A stretch of 62,332 bases of DNA, taken from assembly GCA_964350645.1 (NCBI GenBank), contig CAYGJY010000001.1:1-62332 (forward strand), written 5' to 3'. This document shows, piece by piece, positions 34,119 through 62,332 of this stretch (position 1 is the first letter of the stretch; each line of letters starts with the position of its first letter). The position numbers were made by a program, and so were the translations under genes. The DNA comes from an uncultured Candidatus Saccharibacteria bacterium. Lineage in GTDB: Bacteria; Patescibacteriota; Minisyncoccia; Phycocordibacterales; UBA918. The notes below the pieces were generated by a model. That model was given only the letters and a program-made list of their open reading frames with translations. It made no database searches and was not told the origin of the DNA.

Positions 34119-34126
34119 TTATTACA

Positions 34127-34798: not shown

Positions 34799-34803
34799 TC
34801 TGT

Positions 34804-36030: not shown

Positions 36031-36134
36031 CGTACTTGGGCATGATTGATTTCTGGTTTATCTTGGTATGTATTGTAACCTTAGTTTATCTGCTATAGTT
36101 TTTAAGTTTATAACACTTTTTTCAAATCACCAGA

Positions 36135-37781: not shown

Positions 37782-37784
37782 CAT

Positions 37785-38258
37785 ATGCGCTGGATTACAA
37801 ACAAATGGCATGGAGTGAATAATACAGTAAGGGCTATGTATGTGCGTGCTGTATGTAAGCATGTAGGACACTCTTTATTTGTAAATGGGGGTATTTTTCT
37901 TCGGTCACCAGAAAATATTTCTATCGGAGATCATTGTTCACTCAACCATAATGTGACACTGTCGGCTCGGGGTAGCATTGACATAGGTGATTATGTCCAC
38001 ATTTCTTCAAATACAGTTATCAATTCAGCTGGCCTTGATTACAGCAAGTCCAGAGAATCACGTGGACATATCAAGAAAAAGACTATTTTAGAAAATGGTG
38101 CCTGGATTGGGTCTGGTTCAATTATTAATCCTGGGGTTACAGTTGGAGAGAATGCAGTTGTTGGGGCCGGTTCAGTTGTTACGAAAGATGTGCCAGCTAA
38201 CACTGTGGTGGTTGGTGTCCCAGCACGAGTTATAAAAGAGATATCTTATAAAGAATAG
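37785..38258 (+). CDS. hexapeptide-repeat (LbH) acetyltransferase, paralogue of 33654..34118
   Basis: GSGSIINPGVTVGENAVVGAGSVVTKDVPANTVVVGVPARVIK. Confidence 0.8.
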   Translation: MRWITNKWHGVNNTVRAMYVRAVCKHVGHSLFVNGGIFLRSPENISIGDHCSLNHNVTLSARGSIDIGDYVHISSNTVINSAGLDYSKSRESRGHIKKKTILENGAWIGSGSIINPGVTVGENAVVGAGSVVTKDVPANTVVVGVPARVIKEISYKE

Positions 38259-38323
38259 GAATTTAGGAATATTTAAAGTGTTGACTTATAACTTCAGGAT
38301 GGGATACTGCGAAATATTTTTGT

Positions 38324-40327
38324 ATGAGTAAGAAAGCTATTGAGTACAGAAGTGACATAGATGGCTTACGAGCTCTTGCGATACTACCAGTAGTTTTATT
38401 TCATGCTGGAGTAACTGGCTTTGCCGGCGGTTACATCGGTGTCGATATCTTTTTTGTTATTTCCGGTTTTTTGATCACTTCGATTATCTTAAAAGAGATT
38501 GAAGCTGGGACTTTTTCTTTGCTCCATTTTTGGGAACGAAGAATTCGAAGAATTGTACCGGTACTTTTTTTTATACTTTGTAGCGTGACTATAGTTGCTT
38601 ATTTTCTAGTTCTATATCCCGTTGACTTTATTTCTTATGGTCAGGCGTTGTTTGCACAGAGTATTTTTATAGCGAATATATTTTTTATGAGGCAATATGA
38701 TTATTTTGCAGGACCTGCAGAAGCAATGCCTCTTTTACATACATGGTCATTGTCTGTCGAAGAGCAGTTTTATTTACTCTTGCCACTTTTGCTAGTGACT
38801 TTAATTTTTATTTCGAGAAGACTAATCGTTCCAGTCCTTGCAGGACTGCTATTAGTTTCATTCGCTTACTCGTTTTTTCTAGTTAACTTAAACCCGTTAG
38901 AGAGTTTCCAATTTTTTATTAGTGGCATTTGGGGAGGTGCTACCAACACTACTGCTGGGTTTTATTTTTTACCAGCGCGAGCTTGGGAGTTGTTAACAGG
39001 TTCGTTACTAGCCTGTGGGATAATTGTAATTAGGAATAATATTCTCTCTGAGTTTCTATCAGTTTTGGGTTTGCTATTGATTATTTTTTCGGTCATTTAT
39101 ACAGATGTTACTAAACCTTTCCCAGGTGTATGGGCACTACTTCCAGTTATAGGGACTGGACTAATCATTTCAGCAAATACTCATTCAGATACATTTACCA
39201 AAAGACTTTTATCGTTTCCTGCTTTTGTGTCAGTTGGTCTTATTTCCTATTCACTCTATCTTTGGCATTGGCCATTAATTGTTTTCGCAAAAATTATTTT
39301 TACACAGTTTACTCAGATTGTGTTACTGGGGACTCTCGCATTTACATTTGTACTATCAATTTTAACGTACAGGTATATCGAACAGCCTTTTCGTAGAAGT
39401 AACATATTAAAAAAGACGTGGCAGGTTTATCTTGCTGGGATCGGAGCGCTAGTAGTCATGTTTAGTATCGGTTTTTATATTCATGTGAGTGCCGGTTTGC
39501 CAGAGCGATCTCCAGACACGCTACAAGCTATAGCTGCTGCAGCAGTTGATGTGAACCCGCGTCAGTACGAGTGTTTCAAGAAGAATTATCGGGAAATACT
39601 CGATGAACCTAAGCCCTGCTTATTGGGGGCGCAAGTGTCACTTGAAGATGTTTCATTTGTTATGTGGGGAGACAGTCATTCAGACGCATTAATGCCGGCA
39701 GTAGATGAAATGTTGTTAGAGAGAGGAAAGACAGGGGCTTATTTTGGTACAGGTGGCTGCGTGCCTATTTTTTTGATTGAACCAATTTCTGAAGATCCAA
39801 AATGTGAACGTGTTAAGAGCGATGCAATTGATTATATTAATGAAAATAAAATTAAGACGGTCATGCTGGTTGGTGATTGGAAAAGTAATCAAGGTCTGTT
39901 GTCTATAAGTAATATGAAAACGCTAGAAAATATTGGTTATAGAGATATAACTTTCTTAGAGGCTGTACAATCGACATTAAATTTATTTGAACATAACCCT
40001 GATGTATATGTAATTGCGAGAGTGCCAGCATTTGATAATTTTAGTATTCGTAAAATCTTTCAAGAATACAAATCAGAAGATTTATCTGTTGAACTACCAA
40101 GCAAAAGTCTTCTTCAACATAGAACAGATACTCAGTATGAATTCACAGCTTTTCAAGTTCTAGAAAAAGGTGATTGGATAACTCTGATTGATCCTGCAGA
40201 TGTGCTATGTAGGCAAGATAATGTTTGTTCAATGCAGTTAGAGGGTCAAATTATTTACAGTAACGGGACACATATTAATGCAAGCGGTGCTAGTGTATTA
40301 AAGAATTTGTTGTACGTTATTGAATAG
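38324..40327 (+). CDS. OafA-type acyltransferase-3 membrane domain fused to an SGNH-like domain
   Basis: IDGLRALAILPVVLFH, GYIGVDIFFVISGFLIT, HTWSLSVEEQFY, and C-terminal VMWGDSH. Confidence 0.85.
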   Translation: MSKKAIEYRSDIDGLRALAILPVVLFHAGVTGFAGGYIGVDIFFVISGFLITSIILKEIEAGTFSLLHFWERRIRRIVPVLFFILCSVTIVAYFLVLYPVDFISYGQALFAQSIFIANIFFMRQYDYFAGPAEAMPLLHTWSLSVEEQFYLLLPLLLVTLIFISRRLIVPVLAGLLLVSFAYSFFLVNLNPLESFQFFISGIWGGATNTTAGFYFLPARAWELLTGSLLACGIIVIRNNILSEFLSVLGLLLIIFSVIYTDVTKPFPGVWALLPVIGTGLIISANTHSDTFTKRLLSFPAFVSVGLISYSLYLWHWPLIVFAKIIFTQFTQIVLLGTLAFTFVLSILTYRYIEQPFRRSNILKKTWQVYLAGIGALVVMFSIGFYIHVSAGLPERSPDTLQAIAAAAVDVNPRQYECFKKNYREILDEPKPCLLGAQVSLEDVSFVMWGDSHSDALMPAVDEMLLERGKTGAYFGTGGCVPIFLIEPISEDPKCERVKSDAIDYINENKIKTVMLVGDWKSNQGLLSISNMKTLENIGYRDITFLEAVQSTLNLFEHNPDVYVIARVPAFDNFSIRKIFQEYKSEDLSVELPSKSLLQHRTDTQYEFTAFQVLEKGDWITLIDPADVLCRQDNVCSMQLEGQIIYSNGTHINASGASVLKNLLYVIE

Positions 40328-40462
40328 TAAAAAAGGTTTTTTTTATTTATAAAAACCTCAACACTTCTAAGGTCAGAATAGAATATACTCAGAATTTGAT
40401 ATCGATCCTGAAGATCACTTACTTGGTATGATATTCTAAATTAAATAATTTTTATTTTACTT

Positions 40463-42445
40463 ATGAAATTTCTTAATGTATATTTTCTAATTTTAATTGT
40501 TTTATTAATTCCATTCCCGACTGTTGCTGCTGAGGAAACAATAAAAATATTTAGTACTCAAGACGGCATGAATCAACTTTATGACGATGATGATGTTTCT
40601 GATTGGCTCTTGGCAAGGAATTATGAAGACAAGATTTTTAGGGATACATTCAACGATCTTGATCTTATAAAAGTTAGATCAGATAATCAAGTTAATAATA
40701 GTTATCGAATATATCGGGGCTCTCTTTTCTTCGATTTGTCTAAACTTCCCGAAGGATCTAGGATTACAGACGTAAATTTTTTTGCATTCAAAACTATAGG
40801 TAATAATCCACTTCCTGAAATTGAAATAGTTTTCACTTCGCATAATCGTCTTACAAAAGAAGTGTTACAAAAACAAGATTGGAATATTAATAATTACGGT
40901 GACGATGCTTTTTCAAGAGGATTTCTAGACGATGATAAATATACAGTATTTAATTTTAGTGATATAGGAGTTGATTATGTTGATAAAAATAGACAGTTAG
41001 TCATCGGTGTTCTATCAGGATTTGATTTTGATTCTGTTGACCCTGGGTCGTCTCAAACTGGGGCAACTTTTTATACAATGGAGGTTGACGAACCTGAAAA
41101 GCGCCCCTATCTTGAAATTAAGTACACTCTAGATGAGCAAGATGATAGACGTGTACCCCTCATCACCCAAAGCGCCTCACCATTTCCGCCGGAGTCAGCT
41201 AGTTGGGCGGATGAACTGTATGCTGACGGACGAGCAGCGTACGAAGGGAGCTGTGGAAGTACGATTCGTCAGTGTGGTTGTGCACTGGCTTCGTTTGCGA
41301 TGCTAGGACAAGGCTATGGTTTAGAAACAGGAGTGGATGGTAGTGCTGCTACACCTCCGAATATAGATGCCTGGCTGTTAGGAAACGGTGGCTACGATGC
41401 CCGCGGGAATATTATCTGGAATCAAGCTGTTAAGTATTTTGGTGTTGAGGTAGGGGGAGCAATAAAGTCATTTCTCACGCTTGATAGTCATAACGAAACT
41501 AGTTTGTCTGTGATTGAGGATCGTCTTGATAATAATGAACCAGTAATCTTTAAGACAAAAGCTACTAACCGGGATGGCTCACAATTTACTCATTTTATTC
41601 TGGGCACTCAAACAGACGGTGATGACACGTTAGTAAACGACCCACTGTGGTATAACACGATCAACCTAAACGATGAACGTGACCGCGATGTGTGGGTGCA
41701 AGACTACAACGATCGTATTGATGCAGGACGGCTGTTTTCATTCAGTGACACCCCGCAACAGGTAGCTGGCAGTATCTCGCTTCTACTGTCATCGCCAGCA
41801 GAATTACTCATAAGAACTGATCAGGGTGATTTGCTTGGTACTGATCCTGTAGCCGAAGAAACATACAGTGATATCTCAGGGGGTGTGTACTTTGCTGAAG
41901 AGGCGTTTTATTCAGAAGAATTAGCCGATTCTGGAGAGGTTCCGCATGTCACTAAGACCATTGATATCCAAGAGCCTGAAGATGGTATATATACAATCGA
42001 AGTAATTGGCACTGATAACGGAGAATACAATCTGGCGATTCATACGAATGACGCTAGCGGGGTAGGTTCGCTGCAGAATATTGCCGGCCTGATAACAGAA
42101 GGTGAACGTGACGTGTTTGTGCTCTTGTATGGTGAGAGTTCAGCACGAAATGCTCTTCTCAAAAAGATCACTTTCCTAAAAAAGTTAGTTCGCTTTTTAC
42201 CAAAGAAACTTCGTGCGTTGGTGAAAGAAGACGTGTTGGAGTTGCAGCGTGACGTAACATCTGCTGGTGTCATTAGTCTTGAAAATCCGTTAGCACAGCT
42301 ACTCTTGACTGAAGAACGTCTGACAGTAAAGAGTGTTCTGAAATATATTAAATCAGTACTTGATCATGATCACGGGCATGGTAACGATGAAGATGGTTGT
42401 GATGAAGATAATCGCGGTAAGAAAAAGGATTGTCAGGACGAGTAA
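40463..42445 (+). CDS. secreted protein with central C39-like cysteine-peptidase-type region and His/Asp/Cys-rich tail
   Basis: Signal peptide MKFLNVYFLILIVLLIPFPTVAA. GSCGSTIRQCGCALASFAMLGQGYG resembles Peptidase_C39_2. C-terminus DHDHGHGNDEDGCDEDNRGKKKDCQDE. Confidence 0.45.
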   Translation: MKFLNVYFLILIVLLIPFPTVAAEETIKIFSTQDGMNQLYDDDDVSDWLLARNYEDKIFRDTFNDLDLIKVRSDNQVNNSYRIYRGSLFFDLSKLPEGSRITDVNFFAFKTIGNNPLPEIEIVFTSHNRLTKEVLQKQDWNINNYGDDAFSRGFLDDDKYTVFNFSDIGVDYVDKNRQLVIGVLSGFDFDSVDPGSSQTGATFYTMEVDEPEKRPYLEIKYTLDEQDDRRVPLITQSASPFPPESASWADELYADGRAAYEGSCGSTIRQCGCALASFAMLGQGYGLETGVDGSAATPPNIDAWLLGNGGYDARGNIIWNQAVKYFGVEVGGAIKSFLTLDSHNETSLSVIEDRLDNNEPVIFKTKATNRDGSQFTHFILGTQTDGDDTLVNDPLWYNTINLNDERDRDVWVQDYNDRIDAGRLFSFSDTPQQVAGSISLLLSSPAELLIRTDQGDLLGTDPVAEETYSDISGGVYFAEEAFYSEELADSGEVPHVTKTIDIQEPEDGIYTIEVIGTDNGEYNLAIHTNDASGVGSLQNIAGLITEGERDVFVLLYGESSARNALLKKITFLKKLVRFLPKKLRALVKEDVLELQRDVTSAGVISLENPLAQLLLTEERLTVKSVLKYIKSVLDHDHGHGNDEDGCDEDNRGKKKDCQDE

Positions 42446-42463: not shown

Positions 42464-44473
42464 CTATTGAAATAACTCATTAAACAAAGGTTTAAGAAGC
42501 AGAGAGCCAGTTTTGTTGATATGGTCGCTGTTTTCGTAGAGAATAACGCCGTCTTGCTCGAGCAAGCAGCTACCAAAGTCAGGACAAAGTAGTACGCCTG
42601 GGTCAATTACCCTGACATCCGGTACGTTGGCTAATTGAGAGAATATCTGGTTTGGAAAGGCGAGGTTGGTTGCATGCTCAGAGTAAGTGATTGCTGGTAA
42701 GGCGACCTCTTCATTTGCTAGCGCGGTTTGGTAGATTAATTCTCTTGCTCGGTAATCGAGGTGTTGTGGGACTTGTTTGATGATATGCACGTGTATACCA
42801 GCAGTAGTTAAGGTCTCAATCATTGTCGTGAGACTGGTGGCAAAGAGTTGTCGAGCGATTTCTTCATCTGCTTGCGCGTCTGGGGTAGTGGGGTCAATCA
42901 ATTCAGCGTAACCGGTCCACCGGGCAATGAGAAACACGTCGGTGATATTGTTTTCAAGGATGTAGTTGTAGGCGTAGTTTTTTACTTGCTGACACTTTTC
43001 GGTTGGTGGATCAGTGAGAGTATTGGCTATTGGAAGACAAGCCGGGGTGATGAAGGTTGCACCGGTACGATTAGATTCAGTTGCGAGCCCGCTGAGCAGC
43101 GATAAAAGTGAAGCAGCGTGACTATCCCCCCAGACAACAAAAGTAACATCGTCTGTGTCTTTTTCACCGATTAAACAAGGGTTGTTGTTAGTTTCAAATG
43201 AATTTACAAAACACTCACTGCGCCGCTCGTTAAAGTCGACGTTGGCGGCCGCGATAGCGGCCGCCGTGCCAGTGAGACGCTCAGGGAAGCCTTTTTGGTC
43301 AATCAGTACCCAGCCTGATCCAATCATAACAAGGAGTGCGGCAATACCACCGAGTAACATTGAACGTCGCGTAACAAGCAATTGTTTCAGTCGAAATGGT
43401 GTTTCGACAAAACGGTAACTCAAGTATGCAGCGATAAAACTGAGCAGCAAGATTATTATTGTTTCCATCGGGGTCAGTACAAAGTTACCATCATAGTGAC
43501 GTCCAAAGACGATGAGCGGCCAGTGCCAGAGATAGAGTGAGTATGAGATCAGTCCCACCCATACAAAAAGTGGGAAGGAGAGAAGATTGCCAACAAAGGT
43601 TTTGACATGTGTGTTTGCTAAGATAATCGCTGCGGTACCGAGAGTAGGTACGAGTGCGTACAGGCCAGGAAAGGCTGTCGTACGGTCAAAGGTGACAATT
43701 GAAAATATGATAAGGCCGAGACCAAGAAGAGCGAGTACCTCCGCCCAACGTTTGTTTGTAATAGCAAAAGTCGTAAGTGCTAGCAGCGCACCAATAATAA
43801 GCTCAAAGGCCCGTGATGGTAGAAAATAAAAAGCGGCCGTGACGTTGCGGGTCTCAGACCAGATATTTGGTCCAATAGGGAATGAAAAGTTATCGCCGGG
43901 AGCCAAAGATAGTAAGTAGTATGAATATGCCAGTGACAGAACTCCCAGAGTGATAAGCACGGGTAATAGAGCACGTTTGGCGTAGCGCCAGAGCAAAAAA
44001 CACAGAATAGGGAATCCAATATAAAATTGCTCTTCAACTGATAGTGACCAGGTGTGTAACAGTGGCATGTATTCACTTGGACCAGCGAAGTAACCGTTGT
44101 TACGCATAAAAAATATATTGGCTAAAAATGCTGCTTGGGCCAAGGCTGATTGTCCTAAGTCGATGTAATCGATTGGGAATAGAATCACAAAATAGCCAGC
44201 CACTAAGGAACACATCACAACTACAAAGAGAGCGGGGATGATCCGTCGCATACGTCGCTCCCAGAATGTTAGAAACGAAAATGTCCCGCGCTGCAAGTCG
44301 CGGTAAATAATCGAAGTAATCAAAAAACCGGAAATAACAAAAAATATATCGACACCGATGTAACCGCCGGCAAAGCCAGCAATGTTCGCATGAAATAAAA
44401 TTACTGGTATGACCGCGAGGGCTCGCAAGCCATCAATTTCTGGCCGATACCAGGACGCTTTTTTGTGGTCCAT
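42464..44473 (-). CDS. OafA-type acyltransferase-3 + SGNH-like protein, paralogue of 38324..40327
   Basis: IDGLRALAVIPVILFH, GYIGVDIFFVISGFLIT, HTWSLSVEEQFY, VVWGDSH. Confidence 0.85.
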   Translation of the reverse strand: MDHKKASWYRPEIDGLRALAVIPVILFHANIAGFAGGYIGVDIFFVISGFLITSIIYRDLQRGTFSFLTFWERRMRRIIPALFVVVMCSLVAGYFVILFPIDYIDLGQSALAQAAFLANIFFMRNNGYFAGPSEYMPLLHTWSLSVEEQFYIGFPILCFLLWRYAKRALLPVLITLGVLSLAYSYYLLSLAPGDNFSFPIGPNIWSETRNVTAAFYFLPSRAFELIIGALLALTTFAITNKRWAEVLALLGLGLIIFSIVTFDRTTAFPGLYALVPTLGTAAIILANTHVKTFVGNLLSFPLFVWVGLISYSLYLWHWPLIVFGRHYDGNFVLTPMETIIILLLSFIAAYLSYRFVETPFRLKQLLVTRRSMLLGGIAALLVMIGSGWVLIDQKGFPERLTGTAAAIAAANVDFNERRSECFVNSFETNNNPCLIGEKDTDDVTFVVWGDSHAASLLSLLSGLATESNRTGATFITPACLPIANTLTDPPTEKCQQVKNYAYNYILENNITDVFLIARWTGYAELIDPTTPDAQADEEIARQLFATSLTTMIETLTTAGIHVHIIKQVPQHLDYRARELIYQTALANEEVALPAITYSEHATNLAFPNQIFSQLANVPDVRVIDPGVLLCPDFGSCLLEQDGVILYENSDHINKTGSLLLKPLFNELFQ

Positions 44474-53813: not shown

Positions 53814-54701
53814 ATGAATGCTCTTGAATTTGATGGTGTAAGATATGTCAAAGTATCTGAGATCGCCCGTACGTACGGTTATACTGCTGATTATTTAGGT
53901 CAACTATGTCGGGCTGATAAACTGGCTGGGAAGTTGGTCGGAAGAAGCTGGTATGTGAGTGAACCTGCGCTTCAAACACACAAGTCTAAAAAACAAAGAA
54001 GTTCAAAAGCCAAAACTACGACTGCTCTACGAGAGGCCATACAGAGTAATGAAGAGACTAATGATAAAACACGTATTTCATTTCATGCTAAAAATTTTTA
54101 TTCCAAGGTCGGTCCACAGCAACATACGTATACTGAAGACCAAACAGAACTTATACCGGTTTTGTCCCAGAGAAGTGAAGGTATGCATTCCAGCGTGCCA
54201 GTAGATCACGCAGACGCTGTACGCCTTGTAATTAACGCAGAAAAAGAGCCATATAAGTTGAGTCCAACTGAAAGACCTGAGTTGGTATTCTCAGGAGATA
54301 TTAGCATCGTCAGTGCTGAAGAGGATGATAGTGAAGTCACTGCTGAGATTAGCTCTCAACAACCGACCCCGGTTGAGTTAGTCTCACAAGCAGTTAGTCC
54401 TACAAAACCAGTTAGTAAAGTACTCAAGCGAGAGGGTTTGATAACAATGAGACGAACGGATGAGGTAGTAGACGAAGCGGTAACCATAACAAGTCAATCA
54501 GTACGTAGTCACGTAAAGACAGCAGCTAACAATTCTAGTAGTAACGTAGCGCTGTACGCAGTGGTAGTTCTACTTGCGCTCACTTTGAGTACGGCTCAGT
54601 TGTTCATTTTAAATTTCTCAATTTCAACTGACCAGACTATCCAGCAGGAGTATAAGATCGACATTAAGCAGACAGCATTATCAATAAGCGCCTTAATATA
54701 A
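53814..54701 (+). CDS. membrane-anchored protein with N-terminal excisionase/MerR-type HTH (HTH_17-like)
   Basis: VKVSEIARTYGYTADYLGQLCRADKLAGKLVGRSWYVSEPAL, and a single TM (LYAVVVLLALTLSTAQLFILNF) near the C-terminus. Confidence 0.55.
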   Translation: MNALEFDGVRYVKVSEIARTYGYTADYLGQLCRADKLAGKLVGRSWYVSEPALQTHKSKKQRSSKAKTTTALREAIQSNEETNDKTRISFHAKNFYSKVGPQQHTYTEDQTELIPVLSQRSEGMHSSVPVDHADAVRLVINAEKEPYKLSPTERPELVFSGDISIVSAEEDDSEVTAEISSQQPTPVELVSQAVSPTKPVSKVLKREGLITMRRTDEVVDEAVTITSQSVRSHVKTAANNSSSNVALYAVVVLLALTLSTAQLFILNFSISTDQTIQQEYKIDIKQTALSISALI

Positions 54702-54728: not shown

Positions 54729-55090
54729 CACTCGGGTCAGAATCGATACTCTTAAGCGATATTTGGGTTTTAATTTATAAAATTAAGTATTGAGTTCGGG
54801 TCAAACAAGTGAGCTGTTTTATATTCAGTGGCTTTTTATTTGTGGGTGATGGTTTAAACGCAATAATGTTATAGCTTGTGTCTTGGAATAATTGAGGGAC
54901 CCCTAGGTGGTTATCGGGGCGTGTAAGTTTGTCCGGCTTTTTAGTGGAAATGTTTTGTGTGCTTGGTGTCAGCTTGTCGATTATTTTACTAAAAAGATAA
55001 ATAAAAAAATTAGTTTTTCTGTCCACAGATTACGTATTTTTTGACGGAAAAATATCCGTTTTAGCTATAAAATATATAGTAATTCTGTTT

Positions 55091-55867
55091 ATGAGTACCT
55101 CCGCAAAAATCCTCGAAGATAATACAAAATTTATTGATGCCCGGACTGCTGGTAAGTTGGTCGGTTATTCATCCGACTACGTGACTCGACTTGCGCGTGA
55201 AGGAAAAATTCACGCTGTGCAGACCGGTAGACAGTGGTTGGTTGATCCTGAATCACTGAAGCTTTTTACATTGACCGTGCAAGCTCAGAAGCGTGAACGT
55301 GCGAAGCAGATTCGTGAAGAGCGCAGGGCTGAACTAGTGGCAGCTAATTTTGTCGAACCAATTAGCGCTGATGTTACAGAAGAGACAGTGCTGAAAAATC
55401 CATTGCAACAAATTGCTCTGGCTCAGACAGTAGCGATTGCAGCTTGTTTGTTTATTACATTTCATCTAGTCTGGTTTTCGTTTGAGAGTCGACTGAATTT
55501 CAGTTCGCTTGCTTTGGGAGCCGATGTCATCACTGAGCAATTAAAAGCTAGTATTTTTCAACCTCTAAAAAATTATTCTACAGAAGTTGCTTCTGTTGTT
55601 TTTACACAAGAGACTGAGGTTCAAAATGAACTGACTTTGGAGAGTAGTCAATCCGACTCGACTACCAGAACCTTTGAGGGGATTGTCATAATCGAGGATT
55701 CGCCTCAAGCGCCGACTGAGATTGATTCCATCCGCGAATCTTTTTCTGATGAAGTGTCAGTCGAGTTTGACGGTGTAGATAGTGGTGTACTCAAACCAGT
55801 CTTTAAAAATCAGTCAAACGAGTCGTATCGGTTTTTGCTGACGCCAGTTAAGAATCAAGGTGAATAA
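55091..55867 (+). CDS. membrane-anchored protein with N-terminal excisionase/MerR-type HTH, paralogue of 53814..54701
   Basis: IDARTAGKLVGYSSDYVTRLAREGKIHAVQTGRQWLVDPESL, and a TM (IALAQTVAIAACLFITFHLVWFSF) at about aa 107-130. Confidence 0.55.
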   Translation: MSTSAKILEDNTKFIDARTAGKLVGYSSDYVTRLAREGKIHAVQTGRQWLVDPESLKLFTLTVQAQKRERAKQIREERRAELVAANFVEPISADVTEETVLKNPLQQIALAQTVAIAACLFITFHLVWFSFESRLNFSSLALGADVITEQLKASIFQPLKNYSTEVASVVFTQETEVQNELTLESSQSDSTTRTFEGIVIIEDSPQAPTEIDSIRESFSDEVSVEFDGVDSGVLKPVFKNQSNESYRFLLTPVKNQGE

Positions 55868-55870
55868 CGT

Positions 55871-58800
55871 ATGAAATTCTACCTGTCACAAACAAAAACA
55901 TTCTGGGCTCTCGTGCTTGTTTTTGTGGCAGGTTTTTTTGCCCTCACTACCTTGGTTGCGAACGCGACACCCAATCAGCAAATTAATTATCAGGGGAAAT
56001 TAACGGATGCAACCGGGGCTGCTGTTGCAGACGGAACGTACAACATGAGGTTCTGGCTGCTCTCGTCAGCAACTATCTCAACCACGACACCTGAGTGGAC
56101 AGAAGAGCTTACTGGTGTTGATCGAGTACAAGTCACTAATGGCTTGTTCAGTGTCATGCTCGGCTCGTCAACGCCCTTCACTGGAGTCGACTTTAACCAA
56201 ACGCTGTACCTTGGAGTTGAGATCGGTGGTGTCGGCGGGTCGCCAACATGGGATGGTGAAATGAGTCCTCGGAAAATTCTTGGCATGGTGCCAGCTGCTT
56301 TTGAGGCTCAACAACTCGACGGTCTAGCTACCACGTCATTTTTGCGAGCTGATGCCGATGATACTGCCAGCGGTCAGTTAACCTTTACAGGGAACACAAC
56401 GTTTGCGACAAGTACGTTCACCCTCGCCAGTTCAACGGTGTATCGGCTTAGTGGAGATGATCTTACGGATTTTACGGGCAGCGGTTTGGTGTTGTCGAGT
56501 GGGGCATTGACCGTCAACGTTAGTGAGAACAATTTAAATATTCTCGCCGGACCAATTGATGGGTATGTATTGCAAGCATCATCAACGGCGGCAGGCGGCT
56601 TTGTCTGGCAGGCGACGTCAAGTCTTGGGTTTGTGGCTGGCGAAGAAGTGACGTTGGCAGGAGAGGATTACTTGTCGTTATCAGGTCAAGAAATCACAGC
56701 CAACGCAATTGACCCTGATAATCTTTCGGCGAGTGACTTCGGTGACTTTACCTGTAACGGGACAAACTGTTCGCTTGATACTGATTCGGTTTCAGACAAT
56801 GAAATTGATTATCTGACAGTTACTCTCAGTGACTTTAACAATGACGCTAACTTCATTGAGGACATTACTGGATCAAGTTTCTATGACCTGGCTGACACAC
56901 CAGCTGGTTTCACGGCTAATCGAATTTTGTATCAGGGGGGTTCACAAGTGACTGATTCTGCCAACTTCACCTTCAACGGCACTACCTTCAGTGCACCAAC
57001 CAGTACGCTCTCAGGCCGTCTCACCATGAGCGGCTCAGTCGCTAACATCGCCCTTGGTTCCAACTGGCTCTCCGGCGACGGCGATGATGAGGGGATATTT
57101 GTTGACGGGAGTGGAAACGTGGGGATCGGAACGACGACACCAAATAGTTTACTGACAGTGTGGGGTGATTTCCGGGTGGGAACGTCACTGGTGCCAAGTT
57201 TCATGGTGGCGCCTGGTAGTGCGCGAGTGGCGATTGGTACCAGTACAGACAATACGTCAAAATTATTTAGTATCTATAATGGAGATCAGGAGTTAATTCA
57301 AGGAGTGCCAACAAAAGTCGGTGGTCTTTCAAATGGACAGTCAGTCGTTGATATTCATATTCGCGGTAAGTATCTTTATTCAGTCAGTGCGGGGGGCTCT
57401 ACATTTGTCTACGATATTTCAGATCCGGAAACACTTTCATTTGTCAGTTCTGCAAACCCTGCCGTGACTCTGATGGGTGGCCAATATGGATATGGCTGGA
57501 GCGGTAGCGATGTGCAGGTGATTTCACTCGCTGATCCAGCGAACCCTACTACTACAGCTTCAGTAGCAGCAGCTGATGCAATATCAAGTATGGAACTCGC
57601 TGGTCAGTACTTGTACGTAATAAGTGGTACAACAGGTGATGATTTAGAAATTTTTGATGTTGGAAATCCGCGTGAGCCAGTCAAGGTGGGAGGCGTCAGT
57701 TTTGCTGGACCAGCTTCCGGGGGAGTGTTGGTTGACGGCAACTATGTGTATGTTGGAGTTAATGGATCGAGTGATCGAGTAGTTGTCTTCGATGTGTCTG
57801 ATCCAACGAATCCAACCGAGGTTGATTTTTATCAAGCTGCAGCACAAACCCATACAGTGCCAGCGATTAGCGATAACCACCTCTTTGTGGGAGTGATAAC
57901 ACTCAATGAGCTGCATATTCTTGACATCACTGACCCAGCCAATATGTCTTTTGTTGCCAGTACAACTCTTGGAGGTTCAGTTAATGAGATAGAAATTGTT
58001 AACAATACTGCATATATTGGTACTGGAAACAATGAAGTAGAAATTTTTGACATTACTGATATCACCAGTCCAACTAAGATCACGGAATTTTCCGTCGGCG
58101 CGTCAGTGGGGGCGCTTACGTTTAACGGGTCATACTTATATGTTGGATCACACGTCCAAAACGATGAAATAGAAATTTTTGATATCGCTTCGGTTAAAGC
58201 ACCAGCGGCAGAATTTGGGGACTTACTGGCTAATCGGATTAGCGGTGAGTATTTATATTCTGAATCCGCAGTATTGAGGGATACATTGATCGTTGGTTCA
58301 AATACTTCAATTGGTGGGGCACTTTCAATTGCTGGCACAAGTAGCTCTACGTTGTCTATGCTTACTCCAGCGTTGAGTGTATTGAATGGGGCGGTCTCTC
58401 TCGGTACAACATCAACCGCTTTCGGCCTCAACGTCCTTACCTCTGGCACCAGCGGCTTCTTCGGCATCGGGAACACTGTGGCTGGCGAGTACTTCTCTGT
58501 AGATACCAACGGCAACATCGGCATCGGTTCGACCACCCCAAACAGCAAACTCACCGTCGCGGGCTCAGGCTACTTCGGGGGCAACCTGCGCGCTACTGGC
58601 ACGGTGCAGTTTGATGCGCTAACAAGCCCAGCGGGGGCGGCTGGTATCCTAATCACTGATGTTAATGGTGTGGTTAGCACCACCTCAACTTCTTCTCTCG
58701 GCATCACCTTCACTGAAACCAATAGCCTTGAAACTATCGCCACCGGCATCGCCAATAACGAAATCTTCATCGGAACTGGCGCTAGTACTGGTAACTACGT

Positions 58801-61800
58801 GACCCTGAGTGGCGACGCCACCTTAGCTAACACCGGCGCTCTTACCTTAGCGTCGAGCATTACCAGTGTTACTAGTCTAGCCAACCTCGCCACGGTGGGT
58901 GCCTTAAACGCTGGCTCTATCACCAGCGGCTTTGGCAACATTGACATCGGTGCCTCTAACCTTGATGCAGACGGCACCATTACCTTTGGTGGTTTGACTA
59001 GTGGTCTGCTCTTAGCGAATGGTAGCGGGGTACTTTCAGCGGTTGCGACCAATACTCTCGGTATTGCCATTGGTGACACTACCGGCACGCTCGCCGCGAC
59101 CCGGGGTGGTACCGGTCTCTCTACCATCACCGAAAACCAACTGCTGATTGGTGGTGCGGGGAATACGTGGAGTCAGATTGCGACTGGGACACTAGGGCTT
59201 GGAAATGGTACGTTCTTAGGGCTGTCTGATACGCCTAATTCGTACACTGCGAATGCCATCATGTTTGCGAGTAGTACCGGGACATCGCTGACACAATCGA
59301 GCTCATTGACATATGATGGAACAGGCTTACGAATAGGAGAACTAGAATTGATCCGAGATACGCTTTTATCAGTTCATGACAGCCGAAATGGTAGTGGTGG
59401 TCGACTTGCTTCAACGAGTGTAGCCTTAACAAATGTGTCAACACTAACAGGTGTAAATAAGTCAGGAGATGGGGTTTTAATTAGTGAACTTAATACTGGT
59501 TCTTTTGGCGGAGTTGTTAGCGGAAATGCTTTTGAGGTAATACGTGATAATTATTCAACAGGTGGTAGTTTTACCGTGAGTGGGGCAATGGCTAGTTTTA
59601 TCGATACGTGTGTATCGCCTTTTGGATCGTGTATCTCCTCAGCCGATGTGCTCCGATTGTCAGCTAGTTCGACCCAAAACACCGGCTCGGCTCTCAATAT
59701 CACAACTGCTTCTACTAACGGCGGCTTTGTCTTCCGGGCAAACGACGATGGTACGTTCACCGATACTACGCCGACAGTGATTACTCAGACAGGTAATGTG
59801 GGAATCGGCACCACCTCACCGGCAAGCAAACTGGATGTCTGGGGTGACTTCCGCGTGGGGACGAGTAGTACACCATTGATCTTAGCAGATACTGCGAATC
59901 AAAGTTTACAAATAAATGGGGGAGACTCAGGAACTATCATGGGAATTGCGCGACCAGATGGTAAAACAAGCGTTGCACTCGGACTGTCAGTTAATGGTAA
60001 CGATGGCGGAAAAGCCTTTAACATATACGAGCGAGATAACATGAATGATGTGTTTTCCATAGACACTTTTGGGGGGATAAATGCTTATGGAGAGTCGTTT
60101 TTTGAAGACAATGTCGGTATTGGCTCTAGTACCCCAAGTAGTAAACTCACCGTCGCTGGCGACTCCTGGATTACTGGTGCCTTCCGGGATAGTTCAGGCG
60201 ATGTTGGTACCAATGGTCAAGTGTTACTTTCAACTATTACGGGTACCAACTGGACCAGTACCTCGAGTTTGGGTATTGGCGGTGGTAGCTCAGTCACCTT
60301 CGGTACTGATAATCAAATTCCATTCACCAACGCTGGCGGCACTGACTACGATTACTCAGCCAACTTTACGTTCGACGGTACCAACCTTGGCCTGGCTGGC
60401 ACCACCGGGCTTCTCTTTGGTGGTGACGCACTGCTTTCACGAGGTGCAGCTGATCGTCTTGACTTAGCGACAGGTGACTCACTTAACTTAGTCTCTGGTG
60501 CATTACGAGTTGGAAACACTGATGTGGTTACCTCTGGTCGCTTACTACGTGGAGCCAATGGTGATGCTACTACTCCAGCCTTCTCATTTAGCGCTGATAC
60601 TAATACAGGTATCTTTGGTGAGGGTGACACACTAAATTTTTCAACTGGTGGTAATGAATGGATGGAAATTGACGCAAATGGAAACATTGGTTTGGCAACT
60701 CAGCCTATTGTTGACAGTATCACTTTCGGGAAAGACATACTATTTACCTCTGGGAGTGATCGAAGTATCTCTAATCAAAATAGCAGTGGTGCTGATTTAA
60801 CAATTAGCGCTGGTTCGGGTGGACCGTTTAGTGATGGAGGAAGTTTGTATTTGTATGGTGGTGTTGTTGGGCCGTTAGGCAATAGGGATGGAGATGTTAT
60901 TCTTGCAAATAATGGCACAGCTCAGATTGGAAATGTCGGCATTGGCACCACCTCACCATCAAGCAAACTCGATGTCTGGGGAGATTTCCGGGTGGGGACG
61001 AGTAGCGTGCCAATTTTAGAAGTTAATCCAAACAATGCATTCAAAATTATAGTTGCTGGTCAGGGTGCTGTTGATGGTGCGTTTCAAATTAATGATACAG
61101 GAAATACTTCGGGGTATGGTTTCAATTTAAACCGTGATGATATTTTCACCCAAACCAATTACGATGCAATTTCAAGTAATTTAGTTTCAACAGGGGGTAC
61201 ACTTTCTAGTAATACTACTGTTAGAAACAATTATGCAGAATCTTTTTTTGACGGAACGGATATAAACGCAGCTGTAACACTTACGTCTGTCGGCTATGAT
61301 ACTGAGCTCTATATGGCAACTGCAGCAGGCGGCGCCGATGCATCAAGTTTACAGAATTTTTATGGTAATAGATCAATTATTTATGGTGAGACAATCGGCA
61401 CGACTGTTGGCTACGGCTACTACGCCGACGTCGCTGGCGCTGACACCAACTACTCGTTTTATGCTGCAGCCGGCAACGCCTACTTCGCTGACAACGTGGG
61501 CATCGGCTCAAGTACCCCATCTTCTAAACTCACCGTCGCTGGCGATACATATATAGGTGGAAACCTCCGCGCGACTGGCACGGTGCAGTTTGATACACTC
61601 ACCAGCGGCCTTCTACGTGCTAACAGCAGCGGCGTGCTTTCCGCGGTCGCGACTAATACTCTTGGTATCGCGATTGGTGACACTACCGGTACGCTAGCAG
61701 TGAACCGTGGTGGTACAGGCCTCACTACCTTTGGGGGCAACAATACTGTGTTGTATACCACCGCTGCTGATACCCTGGCTTCAGATACCAATTTCACTTT

Positions 61801-62332
61801 CAACGGTAGCAACCTAGTGCTTGGCGGTACCACGGGTATCTCACTCGGTGGTGATGTGCTCCTCTCTCGCGGCGCCACCAACCGCCTAGACTTGGCGACC
61901 GGTGACTCGCTCAACCTAGTCTCCGGTGCTCTACAAGTCGGTGCCACTACTGTAGTTGATTCTTCTCGCCGCATCTTCACCGCTAACGGTGCTGTTGGTG
62001 CTGGTACCCTGGCCTACTCTTTCTCTGCTGACACCAACACCGGTCTTTACGGCACTGGCTCGGACGTCTTAGGCTTTGTGACGGGGGGTAGTGAGCGAGC
62101 GCGGATAACGAGCACCGGCAATGTCGGCGTCGGTACCACCGCGCCAGTCGGGCGGTTATCGGTCTCCTCAGCGAGTTTGGCGACCACGTGGCAATTGATT
62201 GGGTCATCCTCGAGTGTTCCAGTTATTAGTATCCCTGCTCTCACCACCCTTAGCCCTAATCGCATTGCTTTCATTGATGCTAATAACGACGACCTTCGCG
62301 TCTACGAATTTAATGGCTCGACCTGGAGTGAA
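55871..62332 (+). CDS. giant secreted/surface repeat protein, N-terminal 2154 codons (open to the window end)
   Basis: Absent from the ORF track because it has no stop in the window. ATG 55871 lies 3 nt after the upstream stop, with AAGGTG 8 nt upstream. I translated 55871 to about 59820 by hand without meeting a stop. I also checked the frame at 57122, 59801 and the last codon 62330-62332. N-terminus MKFYLSQTKTFWALVLVFVAGFFALTTLVANA. Seven LVIVD-like repeats, then many GIGTTxPxSKLxV modules. All listed minus-strand ORFs here are antisense artefacts. Confidence 0.8.
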   Translation, partial: MKFYLSQTKTFWALVLVFVAGFFALTTLVANATPNQQINYQGKLTDATGAAVADGTYNMRFWLLSSATISTTTPEWTEELTGVDRVQVTNGLFSVMLGSSTPFTGVDFNQTLYLGVEIGGVGGSPTWDGEMSPRKILGMVPAAFEAQQLDGLATTSFLRADADDTASGQLTFTGNTTFATSTFTLASSTVYRLSGDDLTDFTGSGLVLSSGALTVNVSENNLNILAGPIDGYVLQASSTAAGGFVWQATSSLGFVAGEEVTLAGEDYLSLSGQEITANAIDPDNLSASDFGDFTCNGTNCSLDTDSVSDNEIDYLTVTLSDFNNDANFIEDITGSSFYDLADTPAGFTANRILYQGGSQVTDSANFTFNGTTFSAPTSTLSGRLTMSGSVANIALGSNWLSGDGDDEGIFVDGSGNVGIGTTTPNSLLTVWGDFRVGTSLVPSFMVAPGSARVAIGTSTDNTSKLFSIYNGDQELIQGVPTKVGGLSNGQSVVDIHIRGKYLYSVSAGGSTFVYDISDPETLSFVSSANPAVTLMGGQYGYGWSGSDVQVISLADPANPTTTASVAAADAISSMELAGQYLYVISGTTGDDLEIFDVGNPREPVKVGGVSFAGPASGGVLVDGNYVYVGVNGSSDRVVVFDVSDPTNPTEVDFYQAAAQTHTVPAISDNHLFVGVITLNELHILDITDPANMSFVASTTLGGSVNEIEIVNNTAYIGTGNNEVEIFDITDITSPTKITEFSVGASVGALTFNGSYLYVGSHVQNDEIEIFDIASVKAPAAEFGDLLANRISGEYLYSESAVLRDTLIVGSNTSIGGALSIAGTSSSTLSMLTPALSVLNGAVSLGTTSTAFGLNVLTSGTSGFFGIGNTVAGEYFSVDTNGNIGIGSTTPNSKLTVAGSGYFGGNLRATGTVQFDALTSPAGAAGILITDVNGVVSTTSTSSLGITFTETNSLETIATGIANNEIFIGTGASTGNYVTLSGDATLANTGALTLASSITSVTSLANLATVGALNAGSITSGFGNIDIGASNLDADGTITFGGLTSGLLLANGSGVLSAVATNTLGIAIGDTTGTLAATRGGTGLSTITENQLLIGGAGNTWSQIATGTLGLGNGTFLGLSDTPNSYTANAIMFASSTGTSLTQSSSLTYDGTGLRIGELELIRDTLLSVHDSRNGSGGRLASTSVALTNVSTLTGVNKSGDGVLISELNTGSFGGVVSGNAFEVIRDNYSTGGSFTVSGAMASFIDTCVSPFGSCISSADVLRLSASSTQNTGSALNITTASTNGGFVFRANDDGTFTDTTPTVITQTGNVGIGTTSPASKLDVWGDFRVGTSSTPLILADTANQSLQINGGDSGTIMGIARPDGKTSVALGLSVNGNDGGKAFNIYERDNMNDVFSIDTFGGINAYGESFFEDNVGIGSSTPSSKLTVAGDSWITGAFRDSSGDVGTNGQVLLSTITGTNWTSTSSLGIGGGSSVTFGTDNQIPFTNAGGTDYDYSANFTFDGTNLGLAGTTGLLFGGDALLSRGAADRLDLATGDSLNLVSGALRVGNTDVVTSGRLLRGANGDATTPAFSFSADTNTGIFGEGDTLNFSTGGNEWMEIDANGNIGLATQPIVDSITFGKDILFTSGSDRSISNQNSSGADLTISAGSGGPFSDGGSLYLYGGVVGPLGNRDGDVILANNGTAQIGNVGIGTTSPSSKLDVWGDFRVGTSSVPILEVNPNNAFKIIVAGQGAVDGAFQINDTGNTSGYGFNLNRDDIFTQTNYDAISSNLVSTGGTLSSNTTVRNNYAESFFDGTDINAAVTLTSVGYDTELYMATAAGGADASSLQNFYGNRSIIYGETIGTTVGYGYYADVAGADTNYSFYAAAGNAYFADNVGIGSSTPSSKLTVAGDTYIGGNLRATGTVQFDTLTSGLLRANSSGVLSAVATNTLGIAIGDTTGTLAVNRGGTGLTTFGGNNTVLYTTAADTLASDTNFTFNGSNLVLGGTTGISLGGDVLLSRGATNRLDLATGDSLNLVSGALQVGATTVVDSSRRIFTANGAVGAGTLAYSFSADTNTGLYGTGSDVLGFVTGGSERARITSTGNVGVGTTAPVGRLSVSSASLATTWQLIGSSSSVPVISIPALTTLSPNRIAFIDANNDDLRVYEFNGSTWSE

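What the first reader, a model, noticed from the sequence alone, without database searches (positions are those of the whole stretch)
55871..62332. Giant surface protein gene missing from the ORF track: more than 2154 codons, still open at the window edge
One frame (positions 2 mod 3) is open from ATG 55871 to the last base of the window. The ORF track lists only antisense or out-of-frame ORFs here because the real ORF has no stop in the window.

The product has a signal or anchor sequence. The N-terminal domain (INYQGKLTDATGAAVADGTYNMRFWL...) is of a kind seen on large bacterial surface proteins. A seven-repeat LVIVD-like block follows, and then kilobases of tail-fibre-like modules.

The gene starts 3 nt after the second HTH-TM gene, so it is probably co-transcribed with it. 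In an epibiotic or small-genome organism, a protein like this is a prime candidate for host or partner attachment.
Basis: partly seen in the sequence, partly recalled or inferred. Interest (0 to 1): 0.65.

Follow-up and report, generated by a model that had tools for sequence, protein, structure and literature searches.

The report
Giant Bdellovibrio-like surface fibre gene
The window ends inside a real gene of more than 2,154 codons from an ultra-small (CPR/Patescibacteria) bacterium; it encodes an exported fibre built like the prey-recognition fibres of predatory Bdellovibrio, and it sits in a conserved three-gene unit with two membrane-tethered DNA-binding proteins, one of which may be the fibre's anchor on the cell.

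Summary
Observation confirmed. Frame 55871-62332 (+) has no stop in 2,154 codons. It is the only frame with positive coding potential, and it matches contigs from four metagenome runs with no indel or stop. The gene is incomplete: independent assemblies all break at 62329-62332, where it enters near-identical 135-nt (45-aa) tandem repeats. I could not recover the 3' end.

The product has these parts:
- a signal peptide (cleavage after A30-N31-A32);
- a conserved 133-aa beta-sandwich N-domain;
- a seven-blade LVIVD propeller;
- about 1,300 aa of shuffled fibre modules, joined by seven GNVGIGTTxPxxKLxV motifs;
- the first blade of a propeller-like, weakly tectonin-like repeat.

Both the N-domain and the junction motif link it to the Bdellovibrio MAT (mosaic adhesive trimer) fibres. 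The junction profile hits only MAT crystal structures in the PDB (8OND, E 3e-12). The N-domain family is very large (26,986 clusters) and, in the genome collection searched, lies almost entirely in Patescibacteria.

The gene order obg-gatB-HTH-TM1-HTH-TM2-fibre recurs in at least 38 of 80 related loci. Three independent fusion proteins (HTH-TM joined directly to fibre) lack both the fibre N-domain and the HTH-TM2 ecto-motif. This suggests, without proving it, that these two parts dock the fibre to the membrane.

Verdict: a new variant of a known kind; a likely host-attachment fibre.

The parts
55871..62332 (+). 5' part (2,154 codons) of the giant fibre gene; the 3' end is missing
   Evidence: Open frame. 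Coding potential is positive only in this frame. 174 homologs, best E 1e-208. Four runs show no indels or stops.
55871..55966 (+). Sec-type signal peptide, aa 1-32 (MKFYLSQTK / hydrophobic core / A-N-A before T33)
   Evidence: Read from the sequence. An AxA-type site 3-5 residues before INYQGKL is present in nearly all of the 24 homologs printed that carry the N-domain.
55973..56371 (+). Conserved N-domain (aa 35-167), a beta-sandwich related to the Bdellovibrio MAT N-domain
   Evidence: HMM E 1.8e-72. NCBIfam NF053851 Bdello_MAT_N is hit by 19 of 19 members, best E 5.4e-9, all below the cut-off. AF2 model pLDDT >90 over ~90 residues, all-beta. No PDB fold match. 26,986 clusters carry the domain.
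56372..57322 (+). First shaft segment (aa 168-484), with the first GNVGIGTT junction at 57113-57136
   Evidence: PHROG tail fibre, weak hit at aa 345-441. Internal similarity to later modules.
57323..58270 (+). Seven-blade LVIVD beta-propeller (aa ~485-800)
   Evidence: Pfam LVIVD E 1.9e-15 and Beta_propel 1.8e-6. Seven ~42-45-aa units, each ending in an [LIV]x[LIV][FLV]D[IVL] core. Internal repeats.
58271..62182 (+). About 1,300 aa of repeated, shuffled fibre modules. Junction motifs GNVGIGTTxPxxKLxV start at 58511, 59792, 60107, 60929, 61490 and 62117.
   Evidence: Self-similarity of 30-63% between modules, e.g. aa 1501-1610 vs 1977-2089 at 63%. DNA repeats of 56-129 nt at 61-86% identity. 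The junction profile hits only MAT structures: 8OND 3e-12, 8OML, 8OL4, 8OJN, 8ON4.
62183..62332 (+). First blade of a 45-aa tandem repeat (PALTTLSPNRIAFIDANNDDLRVYEFNGSTWSE...), propeller-like, which continues beyond the window
   Evidence: 135-nt period, depth jump and the 36 nt beyond the edge. Homologs P0005 and P0006 have 4-7 copies. Sub-threshold Tectonin, Rax2 and IFT80 propeller hits.
55091..55867 (+). HTH-TM-2, a membrane-tethered excisionase/BldC-type winged-HTH protein and candidate membrane dock or regulator of the fibre. HTH aa 13-51, long helix plus TM aa 53-132, conserved ecto-motif aa 196-254 (nt 55676-55852).
   Evidence: Pfam HTH_17 E 3.5e-4. AF2 model. The fold matches Xis, TraN, BldC and RacA at rmsd 1.5-2.6 A. 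35 orthologs with an invariant FSD motif. Synteny. Fusions.
53814..54701 (+). HTH-TM-1, a paralogous membrane-tethered HTH protein (TM near the C-terminus) and first gene of the conserved trio
   Evidence: HTH HMM E 2.4e-16. Present upstream in ~40 related loci.
55859..55863 (+). GGTGA ribosome-binding element, 7 nt before the fibre ATG and inside the end of HTH-TM-2
   Evidence: Read from the sequence. No terminator-like site lies between the two genes.

Best explanation
The ORF is the 5' two-thirds or less of a functional chromosomal gene of a Patescibacteria (probably Paceibacteria) bacterium. It encodes a giant exported cell-surface fibre of the MAT (mosaic adhesive trimer) kind first described in Bdellovibrio.

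Shown here:
- The product is exported: it has a Sec signal peptide with an AxA cleavage site.
- It begins with the family's conserved beta-sandwich N-domain.
- It continues as a chain of shuffled beta-rich fibre modules, joined by the MAT capping-loop motif.
- Two propeller-type globular domains are inserted: a seven-blade LVIVD propeller, and a weakly tectonin-like repeat that starts at the window edge.

Inferred:
- The chains trimerise into a fibre tens of nanometres long.
- The fibre stays on the cell through its N-domain.
- The propellers and an unknown distal tip serve as ligand (probably glycan) binding sites for attachment to a host or partner cell.
- The repertoire diversifies by module shuffling.

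The gene is the last member of a conserved unit, obg-gatB-HTH-TM1-HTH-TM2-fibre, and is translationally coupled to HTH-TM2.

My preferred mechanism for anchoring (inferred, about 45% likely) is that the small conserved ecto-domain at the C-terminus of HTH-TM2 is the membrane dock for the fibre's N-domain. The cytoplasmic winged-HTH would then tie fibre display to DNA binding or regulation.
For: Real and coding.

MAT kinship comes from two independent parts of the protein.
- N-domain: 19 of 19 family members hit NCBIfam Bdello_MAT_N, best E 5.4e-9.
- Module junctions: a profile of the seven junctions hits only Bdellovibrio MAT crystal structures in the whole PDB. These are 8OND/Bd2133 at 3e-12, then 8OML, 8OL4/8ONF, 8OJN/8ONB/8ONC and 8ON4 (single-sequence hit).
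- The motif equals the published MAT capping-loop consensus (PMC10769870).
- Homologs end in Peptidase_S74 (E 1e-14; Pfam column), as the S74 subgroup of MATs does.

Mosaicism: homologs share 5-24% of the query at 40-75% identity, in shuffled order.

Chromosomal, not phage:
- The flanks are SecA, Obg, GatB and MurB.
- The same synteny occurs in at least 38 of 80 loci from different species.

Anchoring hypothesis:
- HTH-TM2 ends 0-15 nt before the fibre gene in 32 of the 34 loci that have it directly upstream (range -4 to 65 nt).
- Three independent natural fusions, HTH-TM joined to fibre (P0018, P0106, P0122), all lack both the ecto-motif and the signal peptide plus N-domain. P0018 sits at the orthologous gatB locus.
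- Of 85 homologs, 75 start with the N-domain, 2 start with HTH-TM (P0106 makes a third), and none has both.
- Ecto-motif divergence tracks N-domain divergence beyond the gatB phylogeny (partial r 0.31, p 5e-4). The HTH of the same protein does not (r 0.09, p 0.085).
- The MAT paper states that the surface partner of the N-domain is unknown.
Against: - No expression evidence exists. No RNA run holds the stretch and no proteomics is available.
- The 3' end, and so the tip or chaperone domain, is unknown.
- The NCBIfam N-domain hits are all below the curated 60-bit cut-off.
- Trimerisation, surface location and ligand binding are inferred only by homology.
- The N-domain model has no informative structural neighbour.
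- The co-variation result could come from physical linkage, since the ecto-motif DNA lies within ~250 bp of the N-domain DNA, rather than from protein contact.
- Many N-domain fibre genes lie away from any HTH-TM gene, e.g. L024 and L026 in genomes that have a second copy at the gatB locus. In a second class of loci a four-gene cassette and an FN3 protein lie between them. HTH-TM2 therefore cannot be an obligatory cis-encoded partner.
- The HTH-TM proteins may simply be regulators.
Confidence: 0.72

Rival explanations
1. The HTH-TM proteins are only membrane-tethered transcription regulators (ToxR/CadC-like one-component systems) that control the fibre operon. The fibre N-domain would bind something else on the envelope, such as peptidoglycan, the S-layer, or the FN3 or pilus-cassette proteins.
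For: - The HTH fold matches DNA-binding Xis, BldC, RacA and TraN.
- In class-2 loci an FN3 membrane protein, not HTH-TM, directly precedes the fibre gene. Earlier notes report FN3-to-fibre fusions.
- N-domain fibres also occur away from HTH-TM genes.
Against: - Three fusions join the HTH-TM module covalently to fibre bodies while deleting both the ecto-motif and the N-domain. A pure regulator would not be expected to do this.
- The ecto-motif is the most conserved part of the protein outside the HTH.
- The ecto-motif co-varies with the N-domain.
Confidence: 0.35
2. The protein is a structural or enzymatic envelope component, such as an S-layer-like coat or a glycan-processing scaffold, rather than a host-attachment adhesin.
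For: - CPR genomes encode many giant surface proteins with enzymatic modules. Earlier notes describe some for the same genome.
- Homologs carry pectate-lyase-like, NosD beta-helix and metallophosphatase domains (Pfam column).
- No binding data exist.
Against: - No catalytic domain was detected in the 2,154 residues.
- The architecture, motifs and only PDB relatives are adhesive MAT fibres.
- Propeller inserts of LVIVD and tectonin type are typical binding modules.
Confidence: 0.12
3. It is a phage or prophage tail fibre, or a tailocin fibre gene, rather than a cellular gene.
For: - Weak PHROG tail-fibre hit.
- S74 chaperone domains in homologs.
- Weak BFVD matches of the N-domain to small Caudovirales proteins.
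Against: - It has a Sec signal peptide.
- Housekeeping genes flank it (SecA, Obg, GatB, MurB).
- The same chromosomal position is kept in dozens of species.
- The six genes called on the Logan contig upstream of it include only one phage-named family, a small holin-like protein, and no phage structural gene.
- GC content and GC skew are continuous with the flanks.
Confidence: 0.03
4. It is a decaying pseudogene or an assembly chimera of repeats.
For: The assembly breaks on repeats at the window edge. Run X2 shows a loose end and doubled depth at 58423-58674, which points to a module shared with another gene or strain.
Against: - There are 2,154 codons with no stop, against 53-198 stops in the other frames.
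- The coding signal is uniform.
- An identical single contig has depth 258 in X1, and four runs show no indels.
- Homologs are collinear over the N-domain and over individual modules.
Confidence: 0.03

Closest known systems
Bdellovibrio bacteriovorus MAT (mosaic adhesive trimer) fibres, e.g. Bd2133 (PDB 8OND) and Bd3182; Caulton et al. 2024, PMC10769870
   Same: - Signal peptide followed at once by a conserved beta-rich N-domain of ~130 aa.
- Fibre body with recurring capping-loop motifs (VGIG/NxxxPxxxL).
- Mosaic, swappable modules and tips.
- S74 chaperone ends in part of the family.
- Found in bacteria that live on other bacteria.
- These are the only PDB sequence relatives.
   Different: - It is 2-4 times longer: more than 2,154 aa, with relatives up to ~5,000 aa, against ~1,000 aa.
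- The host is a monoderm-type CPR cell without an outer membrane.
- Whole propeller domains (LVIVD, tectonin-like) are inserted in the shaft.
- Most CPR relatives end in an unannotated ~550-aa module (NSDLAE...) instead of S74.
- It is genetically coupled to two membrane-tethered HTH proteins, and sometimes fused to one. This is not reported for Bdellovibrio.
- The N-domain matches the Bdellovibrio model only below its cut-off.
Phage tail fibres and tailspikes with a C-terminal intramolecular chaperone (Peptidase_S74: K1F endosialidase, T5 L-shaped tail fibre pb1)
   Same: Beta-helical trimeric fibre logic. S74 domains are present in homologs. Weak PHROG tail-fibre hit.
   Different: The gene is cellular, exported through Sec and sits at a conserved housekeeping locus. 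No virion genes are nearby. No S74 domain is seen in the part available here.
Membrane-tethered one-component regulators (ToxR, CadC, TcpP) and excisionase/BldC/RacA-type winged-HTH proteins. These are comparators for the partner gene HTH-TM2.
   Same: Topology of cytoplasmic DNA-binding domain, single TM helix and external domain. The HTH fold matches Xis, BldC, RacA and TraN.
   Different: The HTH is of the HTH_17/excisionase type, not the OmpR type. The external part is a ~60-aa beta-alpha-beta-beta-beta motif with invariant FSD. In some genomes the same module is the N-terminus of a giant fibre.
Other giant surface proteins of Patescibacteria and Omnitrophota that have been noted in surveys
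   Same: Very large, secreted, repeat-rich and lineage-specific proteins in ultra-small host-dependent bacteria.
   Different: This family is defined by the MAT-type N-domain and capping-loop modules. In the searchable literature I found no description of it or of its HTH-TM coupling.

Membership tests
MAT (mosaic adhesive trimer) fibre superfamily | N-terminal signal peptide | tested here: met
   aa 1-32 show an n-h-c pattern with A-N-A before T33. The pattern is present in the homologs printed.
MAT (mosaic adhesive trimer) fibre superfamily | Conserved beta-rich N-domain of ~130 aa directly after the signal peptide | tested here: inconclusive
   The position, size and all-beta model fit. NCBIfam Bdello_MAT_N is hit by 19 of 19 members, but the window protein scores 20-23 bits against a cut-off of 60 and the family's best E is 5.4e-9. 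This points to remote homology; the protein is not a member of the Bdellovibrio subfamily model.
MAT (mosaic adhesive trimer) fibre superfamily | Beta-helical fibre with recurring capping-loop motif V-G-G/N-pi-x-x-P-x-x-x-L | tested here: met
   Seven GNVGIGTTxPxxKLxV motifs. Their profile hits only MAT structures: 8OND 3e-12, 8OML 1.9e-6, 8OL4 1.6e-5, 8OJN 3.7e-5, 8ON4 8.6e-3.
MAT (mosaic adhesive trimer) fibre superfamily | Variable C-terminal tip, or an S74 autoproteolytic chaperone | not testable with these tools
   The 3' end is not in the window or in any assembly I could reach. Homologs end in S74 (9 or more of 85) or in an NSDLAE module (45 of 85).
MAT (mosaic adhesive trimer) fibre superfamily | Intertwined homotrimer displayed on the cell surface | not testable with these tools
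   Needs multimer modelling or experiment. Here it is only inferred from homology.
LVIVD repeat beta-propeller (PF08309) | Tandem ~42-aa LVIVD repeats above the Pfam gathering score | tested here: met
   56.4 bits against a cut-off of 20.2, E 1.9e-15. Seven blades at aa ~491-800.
Tectonin beta-propeller (PF19193) | Score above the Pfam gathering threshold on the 45-aa repeats | tested here: not met
   The homologous four-repeat stretch of P0005 scores 22.7 bits against a cut-off of 30 (E 7.6e-5). Other propeller families score similarly. It is propeller-like, and I do not file it as tectonin.
Peptidase_S74 intramolecular chaperone fibres | C-terminal S74 domain with an SDxxxK motif | not testable with these tools
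   It is absent from the 2,154 residues available, and the C-terminus is missing. It is present in relatives such as P0009 (E 1e-14).
Phage tail fibre (virion protein) | Encoded within a phage or prophage with virion genes | tested here: not met
   The gene has housekeeping flanks and conserved chromosomal synteny in at least 38 species.
HTH_17 / excisionase-type winged HTH (partner protein HTH-TM2) | Pfam HTH_17 above the gathering score, or an equivalent fold | tested here: inconclusive
   Pfam gives 21.2 bits against a cut-off of 27. The AF2 domain has pLDDT >95 and superposes on Xis, BldC, RdfS and RacA at 1.5-2.6 A (prob up to 1.00), but Foldseek E is at best 0.04 because the domain is short.

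The most novel reading that the evidence does not exclude
The fibre and HTH-TM2 together form a two-piece (in some species one-piece) transmembrane contact sensor. The fibre's N-domain sits on the ecto-motif of a membrane-tethered excisionase/BldC-type DNA-binding protein. Binding or pulling at the distal end of the fibre on a host cell would then be relayed through a single long helix to the chromosome, switching on the epibiotic programme. This would also name the long-sought cell-side partner of MAT-type N-domains.
Probability: 0.15. Interest if true: 0.85.

Novelty: new variant of a known kind. Interest (0 to 1): 0.6.

Why it matters
How ultra-small CPR/Patescibacteria cells recognise and hold on to their hosts is largely unknown.

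This analysis shows three things:
- The fibre design that predatory Bdellovibrio uses to recognise prey is hugely expanded in CPR bacteria, with tens of thousands of protein clusters.
- One copy occupies a fixed chromosomal position next to gatB in many species.
- That copy is genetically tied to membrane-tethered DNA-binding proteins, and in three cases physically fused to one.

The MAT field does not know what holds the fibre's N-domain on the cell. The fusion, co-loss and co-variation pattern gives a concrete candidate that a simple binding assay can test. If the HTH end is functional, it would be a direct wire from host contact to gene regulation in organisms that have very few classical signalling systems.

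Tried and rejected
I could not search or extend the window's own genome, or count paralogs in it.

Attempts to recover the 3' end:
- An exact scan of genome contigs with the last 60 nt found nothing.
- The Logan contig that carries the neighbouring gene ends at the same base.
- Laying contigs of four runs gave only 36 nt beyond the edge plus repeat joints.
- A protein search with the last 70 residues found relatives (62% identity or less) but no identical downstream fragment.

Other searches with no useful result:
- No RNA run holds the stretch.
- Fold search of the N-domain gave no significant PDB match (best E 0.09, TM 0.33-0.43) and only weak viral matches (TM ~0.4).
- The conserved C-terminal module of homologs has no PDB sequence hit, and only a faint Peptidase_G2 hit at E 0.07. 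I do not name it.
- Four literature searches found no description of this CPR family. The MAT paper's supplement lists relatives in Uabimicrobium, Micavibrio, Omnitrophica and Dokdonia, but none in Patescibacteria.

Ideas considered and dropped:
- Programmed read-through of the TAA between HTH-TM2 and the fibre gene. The two are in the same frame here, but only 16 of 34 loci are in frame, which is close to chance.
- Modelling a read-through pseudo-complex, because the structure tool returns no inter-domain error or contacts.
- The prophage and pseudogene readings (see rival explanations).

Full report
**1. The observation**

Listing ORFs with open ends shows one 2,154-codon ORF from ATG 55871 to the last base of the window. 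Every other ORF in the region is 240 aa or shorter and lies antisense or out of frame. The translation contains no stop.

I trained a codon log-likelihood on 22 other genes of the window. It is positive only for this frame: +0.16 overall and +0.13 to +0.21 in each of seven 900-nt sub-windows. The other five frames score -0.05 to -0.53 and carry 53-198 stops.

The product is rich in Gly, Thr and Ser (37% together) and poor in Lys and Cys, as beta-rich extracellular fibres usually are. Base composition and GC skew run on smoothly from the flanks.

**2. Why the gene is open-ended**

- A public Logan assembly of run ERR3534981 carries the neighbouring gene on a 13,353-bp contig. That contig stops at window position 62329.
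- I laid the contigs of four biofilm-metagenome runs on 55000-62332. The gene is covered without any indel or stop; run X1 has one contig at depth 258 with 0 differences.
- All assemblies break at 62329-62332. Word depth rises there to 585-900.
- A 294-nt contig maps three times with a 135-nt period.
- One run supplies 36 nt beyond the edge, which read in frame as VGTELNISGSGT, before it returns to 62234.

The ORF therefore enters near-identical 45-aa tandem repeats. Homologs P0005 and P0006 have 4-7 copies of this unit, followed by more fibre modules. The unit gives only sub-threshold hits to Tectonin and other propeller families.

I could not recover the 3' end. Earlier notes of this scan place further findings of the same genome beyond the window end. 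I could not check whether the gene is continuous there.

**3. Anatomy**

- aa 1-32: signal peptide, with A-N-A before T33.
- aa 35-167: conserved N-domain (INYQGKLT...SPRKILG.VPAAF).
- aa 168-484: first shaft segment.
- aa ~485-800: seven LVIVD blades (Pfam E 1.9e-15; blades).
- aa 801-2104: modules that resemble each other at 30-63% identity. They are separated by seven GNVGIGTTxPxxKLxV motifs. At the DNA level these are only short repeats of 56-129 nt at 61-86% identity.
- aa ~2105-2154: first blade of the terminal repeat.

**4. Family**

A search of 5.8 billion proteins returned 174 giant proteins of 1,200-3,700 aa. The few that carry a source name are labelled Patescibacteria (Nomurabacteria, Kaiserbacteria, Uhrbacteria, Minisyncoccia, Paceibacterota). 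Each shares only 5-24% of the query, at 40-75% identity and in shuffled order. This is a mosaic family.

Of 85 relatives examined, 75 begin with a signal peptide plus the N-domain.

A profile of the N-domain finds 26,986 clusters at 50% identity among 1.84 billion representatives (9,636 at E 1e-10 or better). The domain nearly always lies at residues ~30-180. It marks 475 loci in a collection of one genome per species; the 80 listed are nearly all Patescibacteria.

**5. Kinship with Bdellovibrio MAT fibres**

Two separate parts of the protein point the same way.

- All 19 N-domains tested hit NCBIfam NF053851 (Bdello_MAT_N), best E 5.4e-9, though all are below the curated cut-off.
- The only significant PDB sequence hit of the whole protein is Bd2133 (8OND).
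- A profile of the seven module junctions hits only MAT crystal structures: 8OND 3e-12, 8OML, 8OL4/8ONF, 8OJN/8ONB/8ONC and 8ON4.

The motif is the published MAT capping loop (PMC10769870).

The AF2 model of the N-domain is a confident beta-sandwich with no PDB neighbour. The MAT authors report the same for their N-domain. Some relatives end in Peptidase_S74.

The MAT paper lists relatives in other predators and symbionts, but none in Patescibacteria. Literature searches found no description of the CPR family. An earlier agent of this scan made the MAT comparison for another genome; I reached and tested it independently here.

**6. The conserved locus**

The window reads SecA, a small holin-like gene, Obg, GatB, HTH-TM1 (53814-54701), HTH-TM2 (55091-55867) and the fibre gene.

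- Among the 80 related loci, 49 show gatB upstream and at least 38 show obg-gatB-HTH-TM1-HTH-TM2-fibre.
- HTH-TM2 sits directly upstream in 34 loci. Its last sense codon lies 0-15 nt before the fibre start in 32 of them (range -4 to 65 nt).
- Here the gap after the stop is 3 nt. A GGTGA element lies 7 nt before the ATG, and no terminator lies between the genes.
- A second class of loci places a four-gene cassette, including an FN3 protein, between a single HTH-TM gene and the fibre gene.

**7. The partner protein**

The 35 HTH-TM2 orthologs keep the following parts:
- a winged HTH;
- a basic helix;
- one TM helix;
- a variable linker;
- a ~60-aa C-terminal external motif with invariant FSD.

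The AF2 model shows the HTH at aa 13-51, one long helix at aa 53-132 that includes the TM segment, a disordered linker, and a small beta-alpha-beta-beta-beta domain at aa 197-252. The HTH superposes on Xis, TraN, BldC, RdfS and RacA.

**8. Fusions and co-variation**

Three independent proteins begin with the HTH-TM module and continue directly as fibre:
- P0018 (3,381 aa);
- P0106 (2,374 aa, two tandem HTH domains, S74 end);
- P0122 (1,818 aa, with the same 45-aa repeats).

All three lack both the ecto-motif and the signal peptide plus N-domain. P0018 sits at the orthologous SecA-Obg-GatB-HTH-TM1 position. No relative has both kinds of N-terminus.

Across 42 loci, ecto-motif distances correlate with N-domain distances after controlling for GatB (partial r 0.31, p 5e-4). 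The HTH of the same protein does not show this (r 0.09, p 0.085). Physical linkage of the two coding segments is a caveat.

I read this as moderate support for the ecto-motif and the N-domain forming the non-covalent joint that holds the fibre on the membrane. A purely regulatory role for the HTH-TM proteins remains a serious rival.

**9. Verdict**

The finding is correct and its interpretation is supported. The gene is a typical member of a very large, little-described CPR branch of the MAT fibre superfamily, so the protein itself is not categorically new.

What is new is the conserved coupling to membrane-tethered HTH proteins, with occasional fusion to them. That coupling yields a testable candidate for the fibre's anchor and a speculative contact-to-DNA signalling route.

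Function in host attachment, trimerisation and expression all remain inferred.

Noticed in passing
window 55865-55873: HTH-TM2 and the fibre gene are in the same reading frame, separated only by TAA CGT. Read-through of one stop would recreate the fused HTH-TM-fibre architecture seen in P0018, P0106 and P0122. Only 16 of 34 related loci are in frame, which is near chance.
   Followed up: partly
window 58423-58674: In run X2 the word depth doubles (about 24 to 61), and a contig with a 255-nt loose end joins at 58423. This module (GNIGIGSTTPNSKLTVAG...) seems to be shared at the DNA level with another gene or strain variant, and could be a recombination substrate.
   Followed up: no
window 55174-56092: All strain-level SNPs seen in runs X2 and X3 cluster in HTH-TM2 and the first 75 codons of the fibre gene. 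None was reported in the remaining 6 kb.
   Followed up: no
homologs P0002, P0004, P0008, P0013, P0015, P0021, P0025 (C-terminal ~550 aa): 45 of 85 relatives end in a strongly conserved, unannotated module (GNTVRGLEVQ...GENTALSGFARTFGVRG...CVDNDGSC...NSDLAEMYFS...GRVPVKLSTENGPI...NQFGDD) followed by an acidic or Pro-rich tail. It gives only a faint Peptidase_G2 IMC hit (E 0.07) and no PDB sequence hit. It may be a new type of fibre-end chaperone.
   Followed up: partly
L036, L037, L044, L049, L053, L060 and others (locus coordinates ~1800-5850): A second class of loci inserts a conserved four-gene cassette between the single HTH-TM gene and the fibre gene. The cassette encodes proteins of ~225 aa, ~321 aa (with a C-terminal TM), ~255 aa and ~520 aa (FN3). 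It matches the pilus-like WxLIP-type cassette described in earlier notes.
   Followed up: partly
L083 1224-8348 (P0106): This fusion protein carries two tandem HTH domains (aa 9-64 and 73-134) before the TM helix, as if the HTH domains of both paralogs had been joined. This hints that HTH-TM1 and HTH-TM2 act as a pair.
   Followed up: no
P0081, P0082: The same N-domain (E 2.9e-60 for P0081) also heads proteins that carry Por_Secre_tail (T9SS sorting) domains. The family therefore reaches outside Patescibacteria, into probable Bacteroidota.
   Followed up: no
L012, L041: Two loci with full CPR-type synteny or the N-domain lie in MAGs labelled Azotimanducaceae and Hyphomicrobiales. These contigs are probably mis-binned CPR contigs.
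   Followed up: no
window 6320-6427: A SAM riboswitch (RF00162, 57 bits) lies upstream of ORF 6493-7440.
   Followed up: no
window 30000-42000: A low-GC stretch (0.34-0.40 against ~0.45-0.49 elsewhere) overlaps the glycan and sulfation genes and two convergent AT3-SGNH (OafA-type) acyltransferase genes (38324-40327 +, 42464-44473 -).
   Followed up: no
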